A stretch of 64,000 bases of DNA from assembly GCA_049512935.1 (NCBI GenBank), contig JBEKWR010000001.1:64001-128000 (forward strand), read 5' to 3'. The position numbers and the translations under genes are program-made. Under the pieces are notes generated by a model. It saw only the letters and a list, made by a program, of their open reading frames with translations. It was not told where the DNA came from and ran no database searches. Of this stretch, positions 1 through 12,510 are shown in pieces. Source of the DNA: Candidatus Bathyarchaeia archaeon. GTDB lineage: Archaea; Thermoproteota; Bathyarchaeia; Bathyarchaeales; Bathycorpusculaceae. How positions within the stretch are numbered: position 1 is the first letter of the stretch; every line of letters begins with the position of its first letter.

Positions 1-84
1 TAACTGGCGTGCTTCGTTACAAAATAGTGTTTCCAGCAAGTTTAAGCATTACTGACCCCAAGGATATTGCTTGGAGCCGTTTGG

Positions 85-354
85 ATGGTTGAAGTTGTCT
101 CCGTTACAAAGAAGGGGCAAGTGACAATACCCAAAAGGTTGAGAGATAAGTACAGCATCAAAAACAAGGTAATCTTCGAAGAAAACGAATGCGGCCTTGT
201 CCTAAAACCAGTACCTACCCCCGCTGACTTAATGGGTTCATTCAAACCGTACGCCAATGGCAAGACAGCCCGCCAACTGCTAGATGAATCTCGAGAAGAA
301 GAATTCGCCAACGAAAAGGAACTGATGAAACGTGTCCGAAAGGCTAACATTTGA
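85..354 (+). CDS. AbrB/MazE/SpoVT-family antitoxin
   Basis: VTKKGQVTIPKRLRDKYSI swapped-hairpin signature; ATG at 85 preferred over TTG at 67; overlaps the start of a PIN gene. Confidence 0.9.
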   Translation: MVEVVSVTKKGQVTIPKRLRDKYSIKNKVIFEENECGLVLKPVPTPADLMGSFKPYANGKTARQLLDESREEEFANEKELMKRVRKANI

Positions 355-735
355 TTCTGAACCCATCTTAGCCTTCTTCCTTGGCGAACCTGGCTCTGAA
401 CCCGTTGCAAACTGCCTGTCTAAAATTCAAAACAAAGAAGCACAAGGCTTCATCAAGTAATCAACCTAGCCGAAGTCTACTACAGCCTTTACCGCTTGAA
501 TCCCGTGCTGGCAGATGAAAACTGCCGCGCACTAAGCAGCCTCGGCTTAACCGTTCTCCCAGTTGAAAACGATGACTTATGGCGTAATGCAGCAAAAATC
601 AAAGCCCAGCACCCCATGTCGCTTGCAGACGCCTTCGCAGTAACAACCGCCCAAGCCTACAAAACCAAACTAGTTGTCGGCAGCGACAGAGAATTTAGGG
701 GAGCAAACAAAAACCTGCTACGAATACGAAAATGA
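332..735 (+). pseudogene. vapC: VapC/PIN-domain toxin, frameshifted (1-nt deletion near 455-457)
   Basis: GTG 332 gives MSERLTFDSEPILAFFLGEPG...GFIK* (TAA 458-460); the shifted frame from 457 continues VINLAEVYYSL...MSLADAFAVTTA...GSDREF, together a complete PIN domain. Confidence 0.8.
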
Positions 736-772
736 AATCATACGCAGATACGATAAAAACAAATTTCTAAAT

Positions 773-805
773 CTGTATGACAAGTCTTCCTGTATGGCAA
801 GTCTT
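773..805 (+). promoter_or_regulatory. Tandem 16-bp direct repeat next to a TATA-like element upstream of ORF 854
   Basis: CTGTATGACAAGTCTT (773-788) and CTGTATGGCAAGTCTT (790-805), then TTAAAT. Confidence 0.5.
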
Positions 806-853
806 AAATTCGAAACGAACTAAATGTAAAGGCTTGAGAGTGGCTCAAAAAAC

Positions 854-1441
854 ATGAGCGCCACAACAAAAGCTAAAATTAACTTGAAAGATGGCATTAT
901 TGAACTTGAAGGCAGTGAAAACTTCGTAACAAAACAACTTGATAATTTTGCGCAGAAAATTGGAAATTTGACTTCCCCTTTTCCTCAACCGCCCAAACCT
1001 GACACCGATGAAACAGGAAATGACGCTTCGCAGGGGGCAGCCGTAGATGAAAAGAGAAGAAGAAAGAAAAATGCAACTCCACGAATTGTTCCGCCGCTCC
1101 CGTTGGACCTTAAAAAAACAAACGAAAGACCCTCCTTAAAGGAATTCTATGACCAAAAGAAACCCAAAACGGACATGGAAAGAGCGACGGTTTTTGCCTA
1201 TTATCTTAAAAGATACTTAAACATTAAAAAAATTGAACCTGGACACGTTGTTTCTTGCTGTAAAGACGTTTCTGCGAAAGTCCCCAGTGACATTGGCATG
1301 ACATTTTACAATGCTCAAAATCTCTACGCATGGTTACAATTAGATGAAACAGGTAAAGCTGAGATTTCAATTCAAGGGGAAAACATGGTAGAATCTCTGC
1401 CGAGAAAGAAAGATGTTAGCAAAGATAAGACAACAGCTTGA
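854..1441 (+). CDS. Hypothetical protein: small N-terminal domain, low-complexity linker, probable C-terminal winged helix
   Basis: 195-aa ORF; KINLKDGIIELEGSENFV N-terminus; SLKEFY..KKPKT..ERATVFAYYL...ISIQGENMV wHTH-like pattern; overlaps next gene by 29 nt. Confidence 0.6.
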   Translation: MSATTKAKINLKDGIIELEGSENFVTKQLDNFAQKIGNLTSPFPQPPKPDTDETGNDASQGAAVDEKRRRKKNATPRIVPPLPLDLKKTNERPSLKEFYDQKKPKTDMERATVFAYYLKRYLNIKKIEPGHVVSCCKDVSAKVPSDIGMTFYNAQNLYAWLQLDETGKAEISIQGENMVESLPRKKDVSKDKTTA

Positions 1442-2204
1442 GCAGACCTTTAGTCAAGAATTGCTTGATAAACTATTAGATGAATACCAATTAGTTAATG
1501 AGAATTATTATCTCGGCCATTACAGACCATGTAGTCTTAATGCTGGACGCTTTGCAGAAGTGGCATTGAGAATGCTTCAACAATTAACAACCGGAGCATT
1601 TACACCTCTTGGAGAGCAAATAACAAAATTCAGCAATGAAGTTTTGACTTTGGAAAAAGCTGACTCAAACAGTTTTCCTCAATCTCTTCGAATACAAATT
1701 CCTCGAACGCTTCAAATCATGTACGACATTCGAAACAAAAGAGATATTGGTCATGTCGGAGGGGACGTAAATGCAAATTATACCGATGCAACACTCTCCT
1801 TAACCTGCTGCAATTGGGTTATGACTGAATTTATTAGGATTTATTTTACTACGAACATCGACACCGCTCAAAAAATGGTTAATTCTATCATTAAAGTAAG
1901 AATACCTCTTATCCAAGATTTCAATGGTTTTTTAAAAGTTTTAGACCCCAAGCTGAGTGTTCCTGACAAGATAATGGCTCTTCTCTACTATCGCGATAAT
2001 GAAGGCGCGTCTGTCGACGAGCTAGACAATTGGTTTAAAGAACAAACTTCACTTAACTACATCAAAACGGCACTTGGCAGACTGGAACATGATAGAGCTT
2101 TCATTCACATAGACGAGATTTCGGAGAATTGGGTTCAAAATATATGTTTAATCACTGAAACTGGAAAAAGATACGTTGAACAAAACATTGAACTATCCAT
2201 CTAA
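1413..2204 (+). CDS. Putative HEPN-like RNase with C-terminal winged helix (defence/toxin candidate)
   Basis: Helical N-terminal domain with an R-x(4-6)-H-type motif YDIRNKRDIGH; C-terminal ...LITETGKRYVE wHTH-like end. Confidence 0.55.
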   Translation: MLAKIRQQLEQTFSQELLDKLLDEYQLVNENYYLGHYRPCSLNAGRFAEVALRMLQQLTTGAFTPLGEQITKFSNEVLTLEKADSNSFPQSLRIQIPRTLQIMYDIRNKRDIGHVGGDVNANYTDATLSLTCCNWVMTEFIRIYFTTNIDTAQKMVNSIIKVRIPLIQDFNGFLKVLDPKLSVPDKIMALLYYRDNEGASVDELDNWFKEQTSLNYIKTALGRLEHDRAFIHIDEISENWVQNICLITETGKRYVEQNIELSI

Positions 2205-2251
2205 CCCTCTTAGTTCATTCGTAGGATAAGCTGTTAACGTGAAGATAAGTT

Positions 2252-2638
2252 CTATTTTCGGGTCGAGGTCTTATGCGGACGTATTTCTTGTAGCCTATCA
2301 TACAGAGATTTCGCTGAGCTTTTCTTTGCGCGCCGAGGATACGGTCCTGAGTCGCTTCTTGCCCAGATTATTTTGTTCTCAATAATCCAATAGTGTGATT
2401 GACAGGCAAGGCTAAAATTTCCGATTGATGGCTTCAATGTTACCGTTTCTCCATTCCACGTTAGAAACCAGTCCTTAGGCTTGATGGGTGTTACCACAAT
2501 TTCTCCACACCCACAGGGACACTTATGGACCGCAGTCGCGTAAGGTATTGAGATATAGAGAACTCCATCCGCCACATCTTCAGGAATGTAACGAACAAAC
2601 TTAGGTTTAATCGTCGTTATTTTCATCAGGTATTTCAT
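2252..2638 (-). CDS. DUF6527-like protein (putative peptidase of the Ubl operon)
   Basis: GVLYIS..Y.TAVHKCPCGCG..VVTP, W.LTWNG..VTLKPSIGN, CQSHYWI motifs. Confidence 0.75.
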   Translation of the reverse strand: MKYLMKITTIKPKFVRYIPEDVADGVLYISIPYATAVHKCPCGCGEIVVTPIKPKDWFLTWNGETVTLKPSIGNFSLACQSHYWIIENKIIWARSDSGPYPRRAKKSSAKSLYDRLQEIRPHKTSTRK

Positions 2639-3800
2639 CGTTTGTTAGTGCGTTTGTAGAGATGCCATAGGTAATATTATTTTCGTGCCCAAAGTCAACG
2701 TAAAATCCCCTTATTTTCTTCCACTTTATTACTGCAAGGGCAGCATTTAGCGCATTCATATCCGCAATTTGAATATTCTGTGAATAGTCATCTTCGTTAT
2801 CCTCTCCGAAATTTATTCTTCTTGCAACATGTTCTTGAAAAGCTGGTGAAACGAAAGTTACTCGGGAATTTCCGCTCAAAGACCCATTCTGCACATACAT
2901 TCCAATCCCTACATCAACGAATGGGATTTTGTTTCCAATAAGATATTCAACAATGGCTTTTTTATGCGTGCCTTCGATGCAAAGAAAAACAAACTCCATT
3001 TGCTTTAATTCACTAACATTATCTTCATTAATGAACTGAGAATGCGGAAATATGTTCTTTCGCATACGCGAATAAATCTCACTAAACCATTGAACTTTTT
3101 TTTGCTTTTTTAATAAATCATCTTTCGACGGAGCGCCAGGAGAGCGAAAAGCATTGTGTTGAAAAAAATCATCTCCATCAAATAGGTGAATCTCTGTAAT
3201 TGGTGTCTTAGCAACCAGATCCAAAACATATGCTCCAGTGCCACCCAAGCCTACGATAGCAATCTTGCCGTTCTTAAGTTTGTCATTTACAGCTGAAATT
3301 CCAGCACGACTGGTTGCAGTATCTAGGTAACAAAAGACGGACTCTTGGTCATCAGAGTCGGTAACGTGAAAGGTTTGCGCAGTAGCGTTCGGGTCAAGGG
3401 CTCGTGCTTGTCCTTCGAGTATTTTTATGTAAGTTCTCATTTTTTCACAATAATCTGCATAACCTTGTGGACCTGGTTTCTGGGAGAAGGAAAAATTCGC
3501 AATAATTCCTGCTCTTATCTGCAGATTCTTGTTTTTTTCGTTAATGAGGTTCTCCATTTGCGAACCATTCGAGTCACACGGGTAGTCTCCTACCCAAAAT
3601 ACAACATGATTCTGTGGTTTTATTGTCTTATCACCAGAAAGGTCAAGGGCTGAGACCAATATTCCATGGACTACCTTCTTGTCAGCATTTACGTATGGAA
3701 CATTACCAATTAAGAGATAAGCCCCTTCCACACTTACCTCGTAACCATCGTCACGAAGTCGCTTAAGGTCCGGATTAAGACTTATCAGTCCGGGTGACAT
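2607..3800 (-). CDS. E2-like (DUF6791-like) + ThiF/E1 adenylyltransferase fusion
   Basis: C-terminal half KIAIVGLGGTGAYVLDLVAKT, LFDGDDFFQHNAFRSPG, PFVDVG; N-terminal LIGNVPYVN...NHVVFW...FSQKP domain. Confidence 0.85.
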   Translation of the reverse strand: MSPGLISLNPDLKRLRDDGYEVSVEGAYLLIGNVPYVNADKKVVHGILVSALDLSGDKTIKPQNHVVFWVGDYPCDSNGSQMENLINEKNKNLQIRAGIIANFSFSQKPGPQGYADYCEKMRTYIKILEGQARALDPNATAQTFHVTDSDDQESVFCYLDTATSRAGISAVNDKLKNGKIAIVGLGGTGAYVLDLVAKTPITEIHLFDGDDFFQHNAFRSPGAPSKDDLLKKQKKVQWFSEIYSRMRKNIFPHSQFINEDNVSELKQMEFVFLCIEGTHKKAIVEYLIGNKIPFVDVGIGMYVQNGSLSGNSRVTFVSPAFQEHVARRINFGEDNEDDYSQNIQIADMNALNAALAVIKWKKIRGFYVDFGHENNITYGISTNALTNDEIPDENNDD

Positions 3801-4053
3801 CGAAAACCATGCCGCCCTTTACAAACACGCTCTGCCCTTGGACAAGAGTCCCTTGGCGGTTCTCCTTTGGTCCGCGACTATACTGAACCGTAAAAATTTC
3901 AGTAGGCTTGTGAGGAGAAGCGAATGCCAAATCGACTGCTTGCGAATAGCTAATTTTATCCTCATCCCACGGTTTAAGCGTAGCATTAACGATAATTTCA
4001 TATTTTTTGTGATCCGCAGACGTTTTAATTTCCCCTCGGAACAATTGACTCAA
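3775..4053 (-). CDS. Ubiquitin-like (multi-ubiquitin-family beta-grasp) protein
   Basis: YEIIVNA...ISYSQAVDLAF...FTVQYSRGP...GTLVQGQSV.VKGGMVFDVTRTDKS; overlaps the E2-E1 start. Confidence 0.8.
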   Translation of the reverse strand: MSQLFRGEIKTSADHKKYEIIVNATLKPWDEDKISYSQAVDLAFASPHKPTEIFTVQYSRGPKENRQGTLVQGQSVFVKGGMVFDVTRTDKS

Positions 4054-4204
4054 TTGGTTGGTTGGCAGAAATAAACTTTTGCTTGCTACTCAAAGTTTTT
4101 ATTAGCAAAAGTATAACAAAATAGCAAGATTATTGCCAGCAATCTCAACTTTTTTGGTTTGACGCAATTTACTAATTATTTTCATTTTTTGACCACTTAG
4201 TTTA

Positions 4205-4246
4205 GAAAAGTTAGCGTAGGTGGACATTAAGCCTTCACTTACGCAA
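4205..4246 (+). repeat. Imperfect copy of the ino1 upstream region (partner at 5487-5533)
   Basis: Exact 18-mer ACATTAAGCCTTCACTTA at 4224-4241 and 5509-5526; similar AAAAGTT..AGCGTAGG flanks. Confidence 0.8.
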
Positions 4247-4355
4247 ACGTTTGACTGGTTACGGTTTTAGCGGGCTCCCCCTTTGAAGCCGTAAGCATTG
4301 ATAAATCTTATATACGGTTTAGAGCGCAATCTAGGAAAAGCTGAGTGCCCATTCA

Positions 4356-4790
4356 TTGGTTGTACGTAAGATATGTGAGGGCGATTGTTGCCAAGAGTTT
4401 ACAACTGGTGAAGCCAAGTTTGATCTAGATGAACATGGAAATCTGATACCGCTTTCGTTTTATCTAGATCGGGACCGTTCAGGGCAATATCAGTCATTCG
4501 TTTACGAGGAAAATGGTGAAGTTATCGGCGTTTTGTGTGTAGAAATAACGGAAAATTTGCTTTATCTAAGCCGAATTGGCATCAAAAACACGTATAGGAA
4601 TCAGCATAAGGGATATTATTTGCATAAGTATATGATGGATTTAGTGCAAGAAAAAAGAATTAAGGCAATATCAGCAATGGCACATTATGGTGTTTTCGGC
4701 TGGTTTGAAGACCTTGGATACCGCAAAGTCCACGAATACAACGACCCATTATGGGGAAAATCGGCGCTTATGCTTTTGCTTATTGGCTAA
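4356..4790 (+). CDS. GNAT-family acetyltransferase
   Basis: ENGEVIGVL, YLSRIGIKNTYRNQHKG (motif A), WFEDLGY (motif B). Confidence 0.75.
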   Translation: MVVRKICEGDCCQEFTTGEAKFDLDEHGNLIPLSFYLDRDRSGQYQSFVYEENGEVIGVLCVEITENLLYLSRIGIKNTYRNQHKGYYLHKYMMDLVQEKRIKAISAMAHYGVFGWFEDLGYRKVHEYNDPLWGKSALMLLLIG

Positions 4791-5089
4791 GTATCTGTTA
4801 TCGGTTTTGAGGTAACTAGTTCACCCATTTTATCTGACCAGCAATCTTTGCAAATTACGCCATACTTAGGTGTATCTATCTTTATGTCTTCAGCTTTAAA
4901 CGAGGAGTGGCATAGTTCGCATACTGTTGCGCTCCTAATCTGGTAATTGTTGATTGCTTTTACAATTTCTGGATTCTCACGCAAGCAAGTCTCTATTAAC
5001 CTACTTTTTGAAACTGTCTTGTCAGTCGATAGCTTACTGAGCGCTTGATCAAGTTCCTTTGAGATGGATATGGCTATTTTATTGACCAA
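4787..5089 (-). CDS. Ribbon-helix-helix (CopG-like) regulator with C-terminal CxxC...CxxC Zn finger
   Basis: KIAISISKELDQALSKL...SKSRLIETCL; CELC and CKDC. Confidence 0.7.
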   Translation of the reverse strand: MVNKIAISISKELDQALSKLSTDKTVSKSRLIETCLRENPEIVKAINNYQIRSATVCELCHSSFKAEDIKIDTPKYGVICKDCWSDKMGELVTSKPITDT

Positions 5090-5105
5090 TTTCTTACCTC
5101 CGTCA

Positions 5106-5126
5106 TACCATAGTATTACTATGGTA
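5106..5126. promoter_or_regulatory. 21-bp palindrome, likely operator of the RHH gene
   Basis: TACCATAGTA-T-TACTATGGTA between a minus-strand TATA-like box (~5140-5147) and the start at 5089. Confidence 0.6.
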
Positions 5127-5222
5127 ATAACTATTCCCTTATTTAAGTTTGTGTATAGCTAATGCTACAACAGACTTTCCGATGTTGCTAAATCTAGAGA
5201 TAATTAGGATTTTAACTACGAC

Positions 5223-5372
5223 ATGACAACCTTCAAGGCTTTTTCCAGCGGAAGAACGGCGAGGCAACTCTTAGAAGAGGCGCGAAAAGAGGAATTCGTC
5301 CAAGATAAGAAACTGGAAGAGCTTGCCAAAAAGTATCTCAAGAGGCAGCAATCACACCATTTGCACGGTTAA
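5223..5372 (+). pseudogene. C-terminal remnant of a second AbrB-type antitoxin
   Basis: MTTFKAFSSGRTARQLLEEARKEEFVQDKKL aligns with MGSFKPYANGKTARQLLDESREEEFANEKEL of 85..354; in-frame TAG at 5205; no DNA-binding domain. Confidence 0.7.
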
Positions 5373-5558
5373 CCTCCAAATGTAGGCTGCGAGTGTATTG
5401 ACTTTCTCTATCTACTTTCTGTATTGACACCCGCCCCCTATCGGGGGTTGTTGCATGCGCACACTCAATTCGAGGTTTGGGGTTGGGAAAAAGTTATAGC
5501 GTAGGCGAACATTAAGCCTTCACTTAACGTAAATAGGACTTGGGATGGTTATCTTTCG

Positions 5559-6644
5559 ATGCCTGAAATTCGTGTAGCTCTTGTCGGCGTTGGCAACAGC
5601 GCTTGCGCCCTGGTTCAGGGAACCCAGTATTATAAGGATGCTAAAGAAGACACCACCGTGCCCGGCTTAATGCACGTGAACTACGGCGGCTACCACATCC
5701 GCGACATTCATTTCGTTGCCGCGTTTGAAGTTAACAAAAACAAGATCGGCAAAGACCTCTCAGAAGCCATCTGGGTTAAACCGAACTGCTGCGAAAAATT
5801 CAGCGACGTCCCCAACCTCGGCGTAAAGGTTTCGCCGGGAATCATTCTTGACGGCGCAGCACCCCACATGCGGGAAACCTTCAACGTTTACGACGACGCA
5901 AAAACCACCAAGGAAAGCATCGTCAAAACCCTTAAAGACGCCAAAACCCAAGTCCTCGTCAATTATCTTCCAGTCGGAAGCCACGACGCAGTCCGATTTT
6001 ACGCCCAATGCGCCATCGACGCGGGATGCGCCCTTGTTAACTGTATGCCTGAATTCATCGGGTCAGACAAGTCGGGGGAGTGGCCGAAGAAGTTTGAGGC
6101 GGCGGGGTTGCCCGTTTTGGGTGATGACATCAAAAGCCAGGTGGGCGCGACCATTCTGCATCGGACGCTTGTGCGGCTTTGCCTTGACCGCGGCGCCATT
6201 GTGGATGAAACTTACCAGCTGAACCTTGGCGGCGACACGGACTTCCAGAACATGACCGTCGAAAACCGCCTCACAAGCAAGCGCATCAGCAAAACCGAAG
6301 CCGTCACCAGCCTCGTCCCCTACAACCTGCCGACCCGCATTGGGCCCAGCGATTATGTACCTTTCCTCAAAAACAAGAAAATATGTTATCTGTCAATCAA
6401 GACCCGAGCGTTCGGCGACCGACCCATCAACATCAGCGCCAAACTCGAAGTGGAAGACTCTCCGAACAGCGCAGGCGTCGTCATCGACCTGATCCGCGCC
6501 GCAAAAATCGCGCTGGACCGCAAAATCTCAGGAACCCTCATCAGCATGCCTTCTTACGCGTTTAAGCATCCGCCGGTGCAGGTGCCTGATTCGCAGGCGC
6601 GGCAGTGGACGGAAGACTGGATAGCGGGCAAACGCGAAAGATAA
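5559..6644 (+). CDS. ino1: myo-inositol-1-phosphate synthase
   Basis: VGVGNSA, VNYLPVGS, GDDIKSQVGAT, QLNLGGDTDF, EDSPNSAG. Confidence 0.95.
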   Translation: MPEIRVALVGVGNSACALVQGTQYYKDAKEDTTVPGLMHVNYGGYHIRDIHFVAAFEVNKNKIGKDLSEAIWVKPNCCEKFSDVPNLGVKVSPGIILDGAAPHMRETFNVYDDAKTTKESIVKTLKDAKTQVLVNYLPVGSHDAVRFYAQCAIDAGCALVNCMPEFIGSDKSGEWPKKFEAAGLPVLGDDIKSQVGATILHRTLVRLCLDRGAIVDETYQLNLGGDTDFQNMTVENRLTSKRISKTEAVTSLVPYNLPTRIGPSDYVPFLKNKKICYLSIKTRAFGDRPINISAKLEVEDSPNSAGVVIDLIRAAKIALDRKISGTLISMPSYAFKHPPVQVPDSQARQWTEDWIAGKRER

Positions 6645-12435: not shown

Positions 12436-12510
12436 GGGCCGGTCGTCTAGCTTGGTTAGGACGTTGGCTTTACGAGCCAAAGGTCGCCGGTTCAAGTCCG
12501 GCTCGGCCCA
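12436..12510 (+). tRNA. tRNA-Val(TAC), intronless, CCA not encoded
   Basis: Acceptor GGGCCGG/TCGGCCC, anticodon arm TTGGC-TTTACGA-GCCAA, T-arm GCCGG-TTCAAGT-CCGGC. Confidence 0.95.

What the first reader, a model, noticed from the sequence alone, without database searches (positions are those of the whole stretch)
2252..4053. Archaeal ubiquitin-like conjugation operon: Ubl(TDKS) + E2-E1 fusion + DUF6527-like protein
Seen: three overlapping minus-strand genes. (1) A single beta-grasp Ubl ends in ...TRTDKS, not the Gly-Gly of ubiquitin, SAMP, ThiS or MoaD. (2) A 397-aa protein has an N-terminal E2-like domain (NHVVFW, FSQKP) fused to a ThiF/E1 domain (GLGGTG, DGD..HN..R). The E1 has no CxxC Zn sites and no crossover-loop Cys (DDYSQNIQIA instead), and reads LCIEG where an Asp is usual. 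(3) A DUF6527-like protein has CPCGC, PSIGN and SHYW motifs. Established, from memory: bacterial operons with this composition (Bub, related to antiviral Bil and CBASS Cap2 conjugation) were reported to use oxyester rather than thioester intermediates and a Ser-His peptidase. Inference: this is a horizontally acquired, probably antiviral protein-conjugation system in an archaeon, distinct from SAMP/UbaA and from eukaryote-like archaeal ubiquitin systems. I know of no characterised archaeal example.
Basis: partly seen in the sequence, partly recalled or inferred. Interest (0 to 1): 0.88.

Follow-up and report, generated by a model that had tools for sequence, protein, structure and literature searches.

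The report
Archaeal Type II Bub conjugation operon
Three overlapping genes in an archaeal genome form a complete copy of the recently described "Bub" ubiquitin-like protein-tagging system, so far studied only in bacteria, and they belong to a branch of that family found only in archaea among the labelled genomes compared.

Summary
Window 2252-4053 (minus strand) holds three overlapping intact genes: a 92-aa beta-grasp Ubl (Pfam Multi_ubiq), a 397-aa E2-like/E1 fusion (DUF6791 + ThiF) and a 128-aa DUF6527 protein. This is the gene set of a Type II Bub (6E.2) operon, BubA-BubBD-BubE (Ye et al., bioRxiv 10.1101/2024.11.21.623953). All residues that paper tested are present: S106, R219 and crossover-loop Tyr (Y339) in BubBD; the Ser-His dyad and C4 site in BubE.

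The TDKS end is not special. All 78 BubA found in 80 related loci end in Ser, as does the crystallised E. coli BubA.

The host is archaeal (Bathyarchaeia-like MAG). The operon lies in a roughly 4.5-kb low-GC variable slot that holds a restriction-modification-like cassette in a congener. Contigs from four metagenome runs bridge both junctions, so it is not an assembly chimera.

New here: BubBD falls in a strongly supported clade of nine sequences, all archaeal, from three phyla. The system is rare: 3 of 401 genomes of the class.

An antiviral role is not shown, in archaea or in bacteria. Verdict: a new member, in an archaeal sub-clade, of a known kind.

The parts
3775..4053 (-). bubA: 92-aa single beta-grasp ubiquitin-like protein ending ...TRTDKS (Ser92, codon 3778-3780). 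The exact start is uncertain: TTG at 4053, while archaeal relatives start a few residues later.
   Evidence: ORF. Pfam Multi_ubiq E 3.1e-12. AF2 model mean pLDDT 78.3. Best PDB fold match is 9cd2, E. coli ZDHYS365 multi-ubiquitin protein: E 1.3e-8, TM 0.74, rmsd 1.7 A. Sequence match to 9cd2 residues 146-222 at E 5.1e-12, both ending TDKS.
2607..3800 (-). bubBD: 397-aa fusion of an E2-like domain (about aa 10-161, nt 3318-3773) and a ThiF/E1 adenylation domain (about aa 172-390, nt 2631-3287). Key residues: H65, S106 (nt 3483-3485), K108, GxGGxG 184-189, R219 (nt 3144-3146), E276, Y339 (nt 2784-2786).
   Evidence: Conservation over 81 sequences: S106 81, R219 81, Y339 81, H65 80, K108 78. AF2 mean pLDDT 80.1. 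Best PDB fold matches are Citrobacter BubCD chains, E 5.4e-14.
2252..2638 (-). bubE: 128-aa DUF6527 protein with a CxCxC...C zinc site (C40, C42, C44, C79) and a Ser71/His82 dyad (nt 2426-2428 and 2393-2395). Its tail is basic, not hydrophobic.
   Evidence: Pfam DUF6527 E 1.5e-23. S71, C79 and H82 are present in 83 of 83 aligned BubE, C40 and C44 in 82, C42 in 79. Predicted complex with BubA: score 0.75 against best control 0.00, with BubE 70-77 and 82 touching BubA 85-92.
4054..4355 (.). Intergenic region of about 300 bp between bubA and the divergent GNAT gene. It presumably holds the promoter. It is A+T-rich, with a TTTATTT stretch about 20 nt upstream of the TTG start, and it contains one copy of a 30-nt direct repeat (4212-4241).
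   Evidence: Sequence read; repeat D2. The promoter assignment is inference only.
695..5230 (.). Variable low-GC slot (37-44% G+C; genome 47.7%, flanks 50-60%) between the VapBC-like pair and the inositol-3-phosphate synthase gene. It holds two unknown genes, the Bub operon, a GNAT gene and a 100-aa gene.
   Evidence: Composition. blastn synteny with congener G187 breaks at window 694 and resumes at 5230. The G187 slot holds a DNA methylase, a GHKL ATPase and an unknown gene.

Best explanation
This is an intact Type II Bub (6E.2) operon carried as a horizontally mobile accessory module in a Bathyarchaeia-like archaeon.

The mechanism below is inferred by homology with the E. coli ZDHYS365 system; nothing was measured for this copy.
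1. The E1 half of a BubBD dimer uses ATP to adenylate the free C-terminal carboxylate of BubA (Ser92). No processing is needed, because the gene ends there.
2. Tyr339 on the crossover loop takes BubA as an oxyester.
3. BubA passes to Ser106 of the E2-like domain, which is assisted by Lys108 and His65.
4. BubA is then transferred to a lysine of a target.
5. BubE, a zinc-stabilised Ser71-His82 peptidase, grips the BubA tail and removes conjugates.

The biological role is most likely defence against viruses or a stress response, but it is unknown for the whole family.
For: Gene set and domains. The family definition and its tested residues (E. coli BubBD R219A, Y342F, S106A; Citrobacter BubE S92A, H102A; C4 site) come from sections 5, 10 and 11 of bioRxiv 10.1101/2024.11.21.623953.

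The equivalent residues are present here and conserved. Over 81 sequences: S106 81, R219 81, Y339 81, H65 80, K108 78. BubE S71, H82 and C79 are in 83 of 83.

BubA is a beta-grasp domain closest to the E. coli Type II BubA crystal structure. The E1 half is closest in fold to Citrobacter BubCD.

The BubE-BubA model scores 0.75 (runs 0.77, 0.75, 0.75) against a best control of 0.00. That mark was reached by 58 of 80 solved complexes and 2 of 110 mismatched pairs, and these counts hold only roughly because my own alignments were used. The runs agree in at least 95% of contacts, the partner pLDDT is at least 83, and the BubA tail 85-92 lies on BubE 70-77 and 82.

All three genes co-occur in 78 of 80 related loci. 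The two without bubA (L015, L066) have the BubBD match within about 120 nt of the locus start.

Mobility:
- Low-GC slot.
- The same slot holds a restriction-modification-like cassette in congener G187.
- The operon sits elsewhere in congener G353 and in a related MAG, L005.
- DUF6791 was found in 3 of 401 genomes of the class and 4 of 401 of the phylum, own genome included.
Against: No activity, expression or target is known for this copy, and no RNA run holding it was listed.

The E2 (UBC-like) fold of the N-terminal domain was not tested directly here. A profile search of the PDB with that domain found nothing (best E 0.43), and the Atlas search was blank. It rests on Pfam family membership, conserved H65/S106/K108 and the paper.

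The authors found no Bub operon that protects E. coli against phage, so a defence role is conjecture.

None of the regulators often found beside bacterial Bub operons (CapW, CapH+CapP, CapK+CapS) was recognised beside this one.

This BubE has Phe where 80 of 83 have Trp (position 75) and lacks the hydrophobic tail the paper describes.

The adjacent PIN gene is broken, and one class-mate (G138) carries a split BubBD, so decay does occur.
Confidence: 0.85

Rival explanations
1. The module is a working conjugation system, but its role is not antiviral. It would serve a general stress or proteostasis response, or be a selfish, addiction-like cargo of mobile DNA.
For: No Bub operon has been shown to protect against phage. 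The authors themselves raise a stress-response role (discussion; EMBO J paper PMC13373217, passages). No conserved sensor or effector gene accompanies the archaeal operons: only the three Bub genes are shared across the 13 archaeal sets compared, the window included.
Against: The context is defence-like. A restriction-modification-like cassette fills the same slot in a congener. A VapBC-like pair lies next door, and a HEPN-like lead lies in the same island. The distribution is sparse and patchy. Context is suggestive only.
Confidence: 0.35
2. The operon is an inactive remnant in this genome.
For: The neighbouring PIN gene has in-frame stops. G138 carries a split BubBD. This BubE has W75F and an atypical tail.
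Against: All three frames are intact at full family length, every catalytic and metal residue is kept, and the model of the BubE-BubA interface is confident.
Confidence: 0.07
3. The Ubl-E1 pair is a sulfur-carrier (ThiS/MoaD-like) biosynthetic system rather than a protein-conjugation system.
For: The E1 half matches ThiF/MoeB/TcdA-type models weakly.
Against: There is no Gly-Gly end and no rhodanese or Cys-bearing partner. The E2-like domain is fused, and a dedicated peptidase is invariably linked. The E. coli homologue forms protein conjugates in vitro.
Confidence: 0.02
4. The region is a mis-assembly or a bacterial contaminant joined to archaeal DNA.
For: It is a low-GC block inside a MAG contig.
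Against: It lies 66 kb inside a 222-kb contig. Both flanks are syntenic with a congener. Contigs assembled separately from four runs bridge both junctions without mismatch and at even depth; one of them (X4) is not marked as a possible source. The operon's nearest relatives are on archaeal contigs of up to 2.8 Mb.
Confidence: 0.02

Closest known systems
Type II Bub (6E.2) operon, e.g. E. coli ZDHYS365 BubA-BubBD-BubE (Ye, Gong, Chambers, Corbett; bioRxiv 10.1101/2024.11.21.623953; sections 5, 10, 11, 12 and passages read)
   Same: Same three genes in the same order, with overlapping frames. BubBD has S106 and R219 at the very same numbers, and its crossover-loop Tyr is Y339 against Y342. BubE keeps the C4 site and the Ser-His dyad. 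BubA ends TDKS in both.
   Different: The host is an archaeon. BubA has one beta-grasp domain (92 aa) against three in E. coli (222 aa). BubBD sits in a separate all-archaeal clade on a stem of 0.37 changes per site. BubE lacks the hydrophobic C-terminal tail in 9 of 10 archaeal-clade members, whereas 18 of 26 others in the alignment have one (my reading). No Cap-type regulator was recognised nearby.
Type I Bub (6E.1), Citrobacter BubAB-BubCD-BubE (PDB 9ea4, 9ea5, 9ea8, 9eae, 9eav)
   Same: E1 fold (Foldseek E 5.4e-14), a DUF6527 peptidase, and chemistry free of catalytic cysteines according to the paper.
   Different: Type I fuses the Ubl to the E2 and a JAB peptidase to the E1, and its Ubl ends in Gly after cleavage. 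Here there is no JAB domain, and the Ubl ends in Ser at the stop codon.
CBASS Cap2 (E2-E1 fusion) and Bil systems
   Same: E2 and E1 activities in a mobile operon. PADLOC E1-E2 (Cap2) models match weakly, on the E1 half only, with a best E of 2e-7.
   Different: According to the papers those systems use catalytic cysteines and a JAB peptidase. No CD-NTase or JAB gene is present here.
Archaeal SAMP/UbaA and the eukaryote-like ubiquitin operon of Caldiarchaeum (from my own knowledge, not tested by a call)
   Same: A beta-grasp modifier activated by a ThiF-type E1 in an archaeon.
   Different: SAMPs end in Gly-Gly and need no E2. The Caldiarchaeum-type operon has separate E1, E2, RING E3 and Rpn11 genes. 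Neither has DUF6791 or DUF6527.

Membership tests
Type II Bub (6E.2) operon | Gene set: Ubl (BubA), E2-E1 fusion (BubBD), DUF6527 protein (BubE), and no JAB/JAMM peptidase | tested here: met
   No JAB domain in any of the nine ORFs scanned.
Type II Bub (6E.2) operon | BubBD E2 site: invariant Ser with accompanying Lys and His | tested here: met
   Over 81 sequences: S106 81, K108 78 (Arg in 3), H65 80 (1 gap). The feature is as stated in the paper.
Type II Bub (6E.2) operon | BubBD E1: adenylation Arg and invariant crossover-loop Tyr, with no catalytic Cys | tested here: met
   R219 81 of 81; Y339 81 of 81; Cys only at 75, 118, 157 and 274.
Type II Bub (6E.2) operon | BubE: DUF6527 fold with a C4 zinc site and a Ser-His dyad | tested here: met
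   PF20137 E 1.5e-23. C40, C42, C44, C79, S71 and H82 are conserved. The fold itself was not modelled on its own.
Type II Bub (6E.2) operon | BubA is a beta-grasp Ubl of the Multi_ubiq family | tested here: met
Type II Bub (6E.2) operon | The N-terminal domain of BubBD has a UBC-like (E2) fold | tested here: inconclusive
   The AF2 model gives helix, beta-sheet, then a long helix, with S106 at the end of a strand. Foldseek on the whole model returned only E1 matches. The PDB profile search and the Atlas search were blank.
Type II Bub (6E.2) operon | ATP-dependent conjugation through Tyr and Ser oxyesters; BubE cleaves conjugates | not testable with these tools
   Biochemistry only. Shown for E. 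coli and Citrobacter proteins in the paper.
SAMP/UbaA-type archaeal sampylation | Modifier ends in Gly-Gly; stand-alone E1; no E2 and no DUF6527 | tested here: not met
   BubA ends in Ser. The E1 is fused to DUF6791, and DUF6527 is present. The definition is recalled.
CBASS Cap2 / Bil | Cys-based E1 and E2 with a JAB peptidase, and a CD-NTase for CBASS | tested here: not met
   Only weak PADLOC matches, on the E1 half. No JAB or CD-NTase in the neighbours. S106 and Y339 stand where the paper places the catalytic residues.

The most novel reading that the evidence does not exclude
An archaea-specific lineage of Type II Bub, with a single-domain Ubl and a BubE without the hydrophobic tail, circulates between Bathyarchaeia, Thermoplasmatota and Nitrososphaerota. 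It works there as a cysteine-free protein-tagging system against archaeal viruses or in stress. That would be a third kind of archaeal Ubl conjugation, beside sampylation and the eukaryote-like ubiquitin operons. The invariant C-terminal Ser of Type II BubA (Gly in Type I) may be a recognition or chemistry determinant that the texts I could read do not discuss.
Probability: 0.3. Interest if true: 0.6.

Novelty: new member of a known kind. Interest (0 to 1): 0.42.

Why it matters
Bub is a recently described ubiquitination-like pathway that works through oxyesters instead of thioesters, and its biological role is still open. The work I could read treats it as bacterial.

Here there is a complete, intact copy inside a well-anchored archaeal chromosome. 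It belongs to a clade that, among the labelled genomes compared, is purely archaeal and spans three phyla. At least 112 further protein clusters from metagenomes group with that clade.

This extends the system to the second prokaryotic domain. It also offers small single-domain proteins for biochemistry, and it gives a natural comparison: BubE with and without the hydrophobic tail, and Ser against Gly at the Ubl end. It is an extension of a known family, not a new kind of system.

Tried and rejected
- **E2 fold of the N-terminal domain.** A profile of 30 DUF6791 domains against all PDB sequences found nothing (best E 0.43, a serine recombinase). The Atlas search of residues 1-150 was blank.
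- **PADLOC.** No Bub model exists in that 2023 library. It gave only weak Cap2 E1-E2 matches and one stray weak methyltransferase match for BubE (E 0.0052).
- **PHROGs.** Only weak matches to families of unknown function.
- **Viral contigs (IMG/VR).** 5 relatives among 56 pattern matches, all at most 48% identical, so there is no sign of the archaeal clade on viral contigs.
- **Conserved neighbours.** The window's four island neighbours (195 aa, 263 aa, GNAT, 100 aa) have no homologue in the flanks of any fetched Bub locus. Among 13 archaeal sets (the window and 12 loci) only the three Bub genes are shared beyond close kin. Pfam scans of 20 neighbour ORFs from 8 archaeal loci gave scattered matches and no recurring partner or Cap-type regulator: subtilase, PLD plus ResIII helicase, weak HNH and AHJR-like, transglutaminase-like, and a second ThiF protein.
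- **Two separate entries into archaea.** The free tree puts the Methanoperedens pair (L015, L016) among bacteria, apart from the main archaeal clade. The AU test does not reject a tree holding all 11 archaeal rows together: p 0.193, log-likelihood 27.9 lower (the first two calls timed out and were continued). I named the group after seeing the tree. I therefore do not claim two origins.
- **16S rRNA.** None was found in the 93%-complete genome. The phylum rests on flank similarity to a titled MAG.
- **Expression.** No RNA holder was listed by the look-up of sequencing runs, so nothing can be said about expression.
- **Coverage gap.** In run X4 one bin (4501-4750) has no cover. No contig joins across it, so it says nothing.
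- **Direct repeats as island ends.** The only notable pair (30 nt, 93%, at 4212 and 5497) brackets only the GNAT and 100-aa genes, not the operon. No integrase or tRNA lies at the borders; the tRNA-Val is at 12436.
- **Literature.** Searches, and passages, found no mention of Bub operons in archaea and no 'C-terminal serine' in the two Bub preprints. Only the held library was covered. The published versions cited as Ye et al 2026 and Gong et al 2025 were not seen. Table S1 (544 operons) was closed, so archaeal entries may be listed there.
Full report
**What is there.** On the minus strand of window 2252-4053 lie three intact, overlapping ORFs.
- bubA, 3775-4053: 92 aa, ends ...TRTDKS.
- bubBD, 2607-3800: 397 aa.
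- bubE, 2252-2638: 128 aa.

The overlaps are 26 nt and 32 nt. Pfam assigns Multi_ubiq (E 3.1e-12) to the first, DUF6791 (E 4.1e-56) plus ThiF (E 5.8e-11) to the second, and DUF6527 (E 1.5e-23) to the third. NCBIfam NF004805 (PRK06153.1-4) matches the fusion end to end at 531.7 bits against a cut-off of 352. The PADLOC 2023 library has no model for this system and gives only weak Cap2-type matches on the E1 half.

**What it is.** The gene set equals the Type II Bub (formerly 6E.2) operon: BubA (Ubl), BubBD (E2-E1 fusion) and BubE (DUF6527), without a JAB peptidase. This definition comes from Ye, Gong, Chambers and Corbett (bioRxiv 10.1101/2024.11.21.623953); I read the outline, sections 5, 10, 11 and 12, and passages.
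- For E. coli ZDHYS365, that paper reports ATP-dependent BubA conjugates that are lost in BubBD R219A, Y342F and S106A.
- For Citrobacter BubE, it reports weak peptidase activity that depends on S92 and H102, and a C4 zinc site.

In the window's BubBD the same residues stand at S106, R219 and Y339. Across the window plus 80 genomic relatives, conservation over 81 sequences is S106 81, R219 81, Y339 81, H65 80 and K108 78. BubE keeps C40, C42, C44, C79, S71 and H82.

An AlphaFold2 model of BubA (mean pLDDT 78.3) is closest to the crystal structure of E. coli ZDHYS365 BubA, 9cd2 (E 1.3e-8, TM 0.74, rmsd 1.7 A, 43% identity). A model of BubBD (mean pLDDT 80.1) is closest to Citrobacter BubCD chains (E 5.4e-14). 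PaaA, UBA5, MccB, ThiF and MoeB follow.

The UBC-like fold of the N-terminal domain could not be tested separately. It rests on family membership and the conserved Ser/Lys/His.

**The TDKS end.** That is true, but it is the rule in this family.
- In the 80 best genomic loci, 78 have a recognisable bubA, and all 78 end in Ser, mostly as T-D/N-K/R-S.
- In the 36-row alignment, T89 and S92 are invariant.
- The crystallised E. coli BubA also ends ...TQTDKS at its last residue.
- The two loci without bubA (L015, L066) have the BubBD match within about 120 nt of the locus start.
- 'C-terminal serine' does not occur in the main text of either Bub preprint. The feature seems not to be discussed there, although it is implicit in the deposited sequence.
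- The Glu in LCIEG is likewise a common variant: Asp 67, Glu 14 of 81.

**Predicted BubE-BubA contact.** A complex prediction of BubE with BubA, using my own alignments A4 and A2, passed.
- The score was 0.75 (runs 0.77, 0.75, 0.75) against a best control of 0.00.
- That mark was reached by 58 of 80 solved complexes and 2 of 110 mismatched pairs. These counts hold only roughly with my own alignments.
- The runs agree in at least 95% of contacts, and the partner pLDDT is at least 83.
- BubA residues 85-92 touch BubE 70-77 and 82, so the tail lies on the Ser71/His82 dyad.
- The paper states that no BubE structure could be determined, so memory of a solved complex is unlikely.
- The result supports binding in the model. 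It does not show it.

**Host and integrity.**
- The window is C1:64001-128000 of a 2.30-Mb genome of 49 contigs, 93% complete and 1.8% contaminated. C1 is 221,790 nt long.
- The window encodes archaeal-type RqcH (606.8 bits against 400), archaeal ThrRS (816 bits) and class-I ProRS.
- No 16S gene was found.
- The flanks of the Bub operon in a MAG titled Candidatus Bathyarchaeota archaeon (L005) match contig C11 of this genome at 79-87% nucleotide identity over 3.5 kb. The host is therefore a close relative of that MAG.
- Logan contigs from four peat or wetland runs cover the region at 0-3 mismatches per contig. They bridge both island junctions: X1 with a single 6670-nt contig over window 1-5617; X2 and X3 each with two contigs; X4, which is not marked as a possible source, with contigs 530-980 and 4780-5620. 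Depth is even across island and flanks.
- A chimeric or contaminant join is therefore very unlikely.

**Mobile accessory character.**
- G+C is 37-44% over roughly window 400-5400, against 47.7% for the genome and 50-60% in the flanks.
- Against the congener G187, synteny holds on both sides but breaks between window 694 and 5230. G187 carries there a DNA methylase (N6_N4_Mtase, E 1e-44), a 708-aa GHKL ATPase with weak type II restriction-enzyme matches, and an unknown 442-aa gene.
- In congener G353 the Bub operon lies about 75 kb from the ino1 gene, on the same contig.
- In L005 the operon lies beside orthologues of C11 genes.
- The L005 operon matches this one at about 70% nucleotide identity, against 79-87% for its flanks. 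The operons are thus more diverged than their genomic surroundings.
- DUF6791 was found in 3 of 401 sampled genomes of the class (one of them split into two frames) and in 4 of 401 of the phylum, own genome included. Three of the phylum hits are in a single family, 3 of 56. These are samples: 'not found in those searched' is not the same as absent.

**An archaeal clade.**
The top eight are all archaeal: Bathyarchaeota 74, 63 and 63%; Thermoplasmata-type 63 and 62%; Nitrosopumilus 60 and 58%; Thaumarchaeota 54%. Bacteria follow at 55% or less.
- A maximum-likelihood tree (quick search, LG+C20+F+G4, 81 rows) places the window in a clade of nine rows, all archaeal. SH-aLRT support is 100 and the stem is 0.37 changes per site.
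- Inside the clade the phyla are interleaved. One Bathyarchaeia row groups with Nitrosopumilus, and the others group with Thermoplasmata-type rows. That points to exchange among archaea.
- In a FastTree of 200 rows, the smallest clade holding these nine contains 112 of the 119 database proteins included, and none of the 70 bacterial loci.
- A Methanoperedens pair sits elsewhere in the free tree. The AU test does not reject a single archaeal group (p 0.193), so I do not claim two origins.
- The tree samples only the best 80 loci and is unrooted.

**Differences from bacterial members.**
- BubA is a single beta-grasp domain. The second preprint reports 40% of Bub Ubls as single-domain (passages).
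- BubE in the archaeal clade has a short, basic tail after the core in 9 of 10 members. Of the other 26 sequences in alignment A4, 18 end in a Trp/Phe-rich amphipathic stretch; this is my reading, and it corresponds to the hydrophobic extension the paper proposes for membrane association.
- No CapW, CapH+CapP or CapK+CapS-like regulator was recognised next to the operon, nor among the 20 neighbour ORFs scanned in other archaeal loci.
- Only the three Bub genes are conserved across the archaeal loci.

**Function.** The chemical mechanism is inferred from homology: adenylation of Ser92, then Tyr339 oxyester, then Ser106 oxyester, then target lysine, with BubE as the deconjugating peptidase. The role is open. 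The authors state they have found no Bub operon that protects E. coli from phage (repeated in the 2026 EMBO J paper PMC13373217, passages). The context here fits a defence island but proves nothing:
- a slot that elsewhere holds a restriction-modification-like cassette;
- a VapBC-like neighbour;
- a HEPN-like plus winged-helix lead in the same island.

**Novelty and score.** What is added:
- It is firmly anchored in an archaeal chromosome.
- It belongs to a clade that is archaeal in every labelled case, spanning three phyla.
- The Ser end is universal in Type II.

I found no report of Bub in archaea in the held library. Supplementary tables and the published versions were not available, and public annotation already lists such proteins in archaeal MAGs as 'ThiF family adenylyltransferase'. 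I rate it a new member of a known kind, with interest 0.42.

Noticed in passing
window 331-735 (+): The PIN (VapC-like) gene next to the MazE-like antitoxin gene (67-354) is broken at its 5' end. It has four in-frame stops in the first 31 codons, and only the last 79 codons stay open. The congener G187 has an intact 134-aa gene at the same place.
   Followed up: partly
window 854-1441 (+) and 1413-2204 (+): Two overlapping genes of unknown function (195 and 263 aa) lie in the same low-GC island, tail to tail with bubE. They have no Pfam, NCBIfam, PADLOC or PHROG match. For the 263-aa protein the Atlas gives leads to a HEPN-like N-terminal half and a winged-helix C-terminal half, and the sequence holds an RNKRDIGH stretch that fits the Rx4-6H HEPN motif (motif recalled). 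This may be a separate small defence or toxin-like pair.
   Followed up: partly
window 4212-4241 and 5497-5526: A 30-nt direct repeat (28 of 30 identical) brackets only the GNAT gene (4356-4790) and the 100-aa gene (4787-5089). The second copy lies just upstream of the inositol-3-phosphate synthase gene. It may be the trace of a separate small insertion.
   Followed up: no
L088 5856-10351 (congener G187): The slot that holds Bub in this genome holds a DNA methylase, a 708-aa protein with two GHKL ATPase domains and weak type II restriction-enzyme matches, and an unknown 442-aa protein. It looks like a variable defence hotspot of the genus.
   Followed up: partly
L093 3535-4766 (G138, same class): The BubBD gene is split into two frames (91 and 344 aa), while bubA and bubE are intact. 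This is either a frameshifted pseudogene or an assembly error.
   Followed up: no
L016 7571-9007 (uncultured archaeon): A second, 478-aa ThiF-family protein lies 2 kb downstream of that archaeon's Bub operon, next to a transglutaminase-like protein.
   Followed up: no
L002-L081, bubA/bubBD junction: In most rows bubA ends 26 nt after the first codon of bubBD (4026 against 4001, or 4014 against 3989), the same overlap as in the window. The overlap seems conserved across the family, which suggests translational coupling. This was judged by eye, not counted.
   Followed up: no
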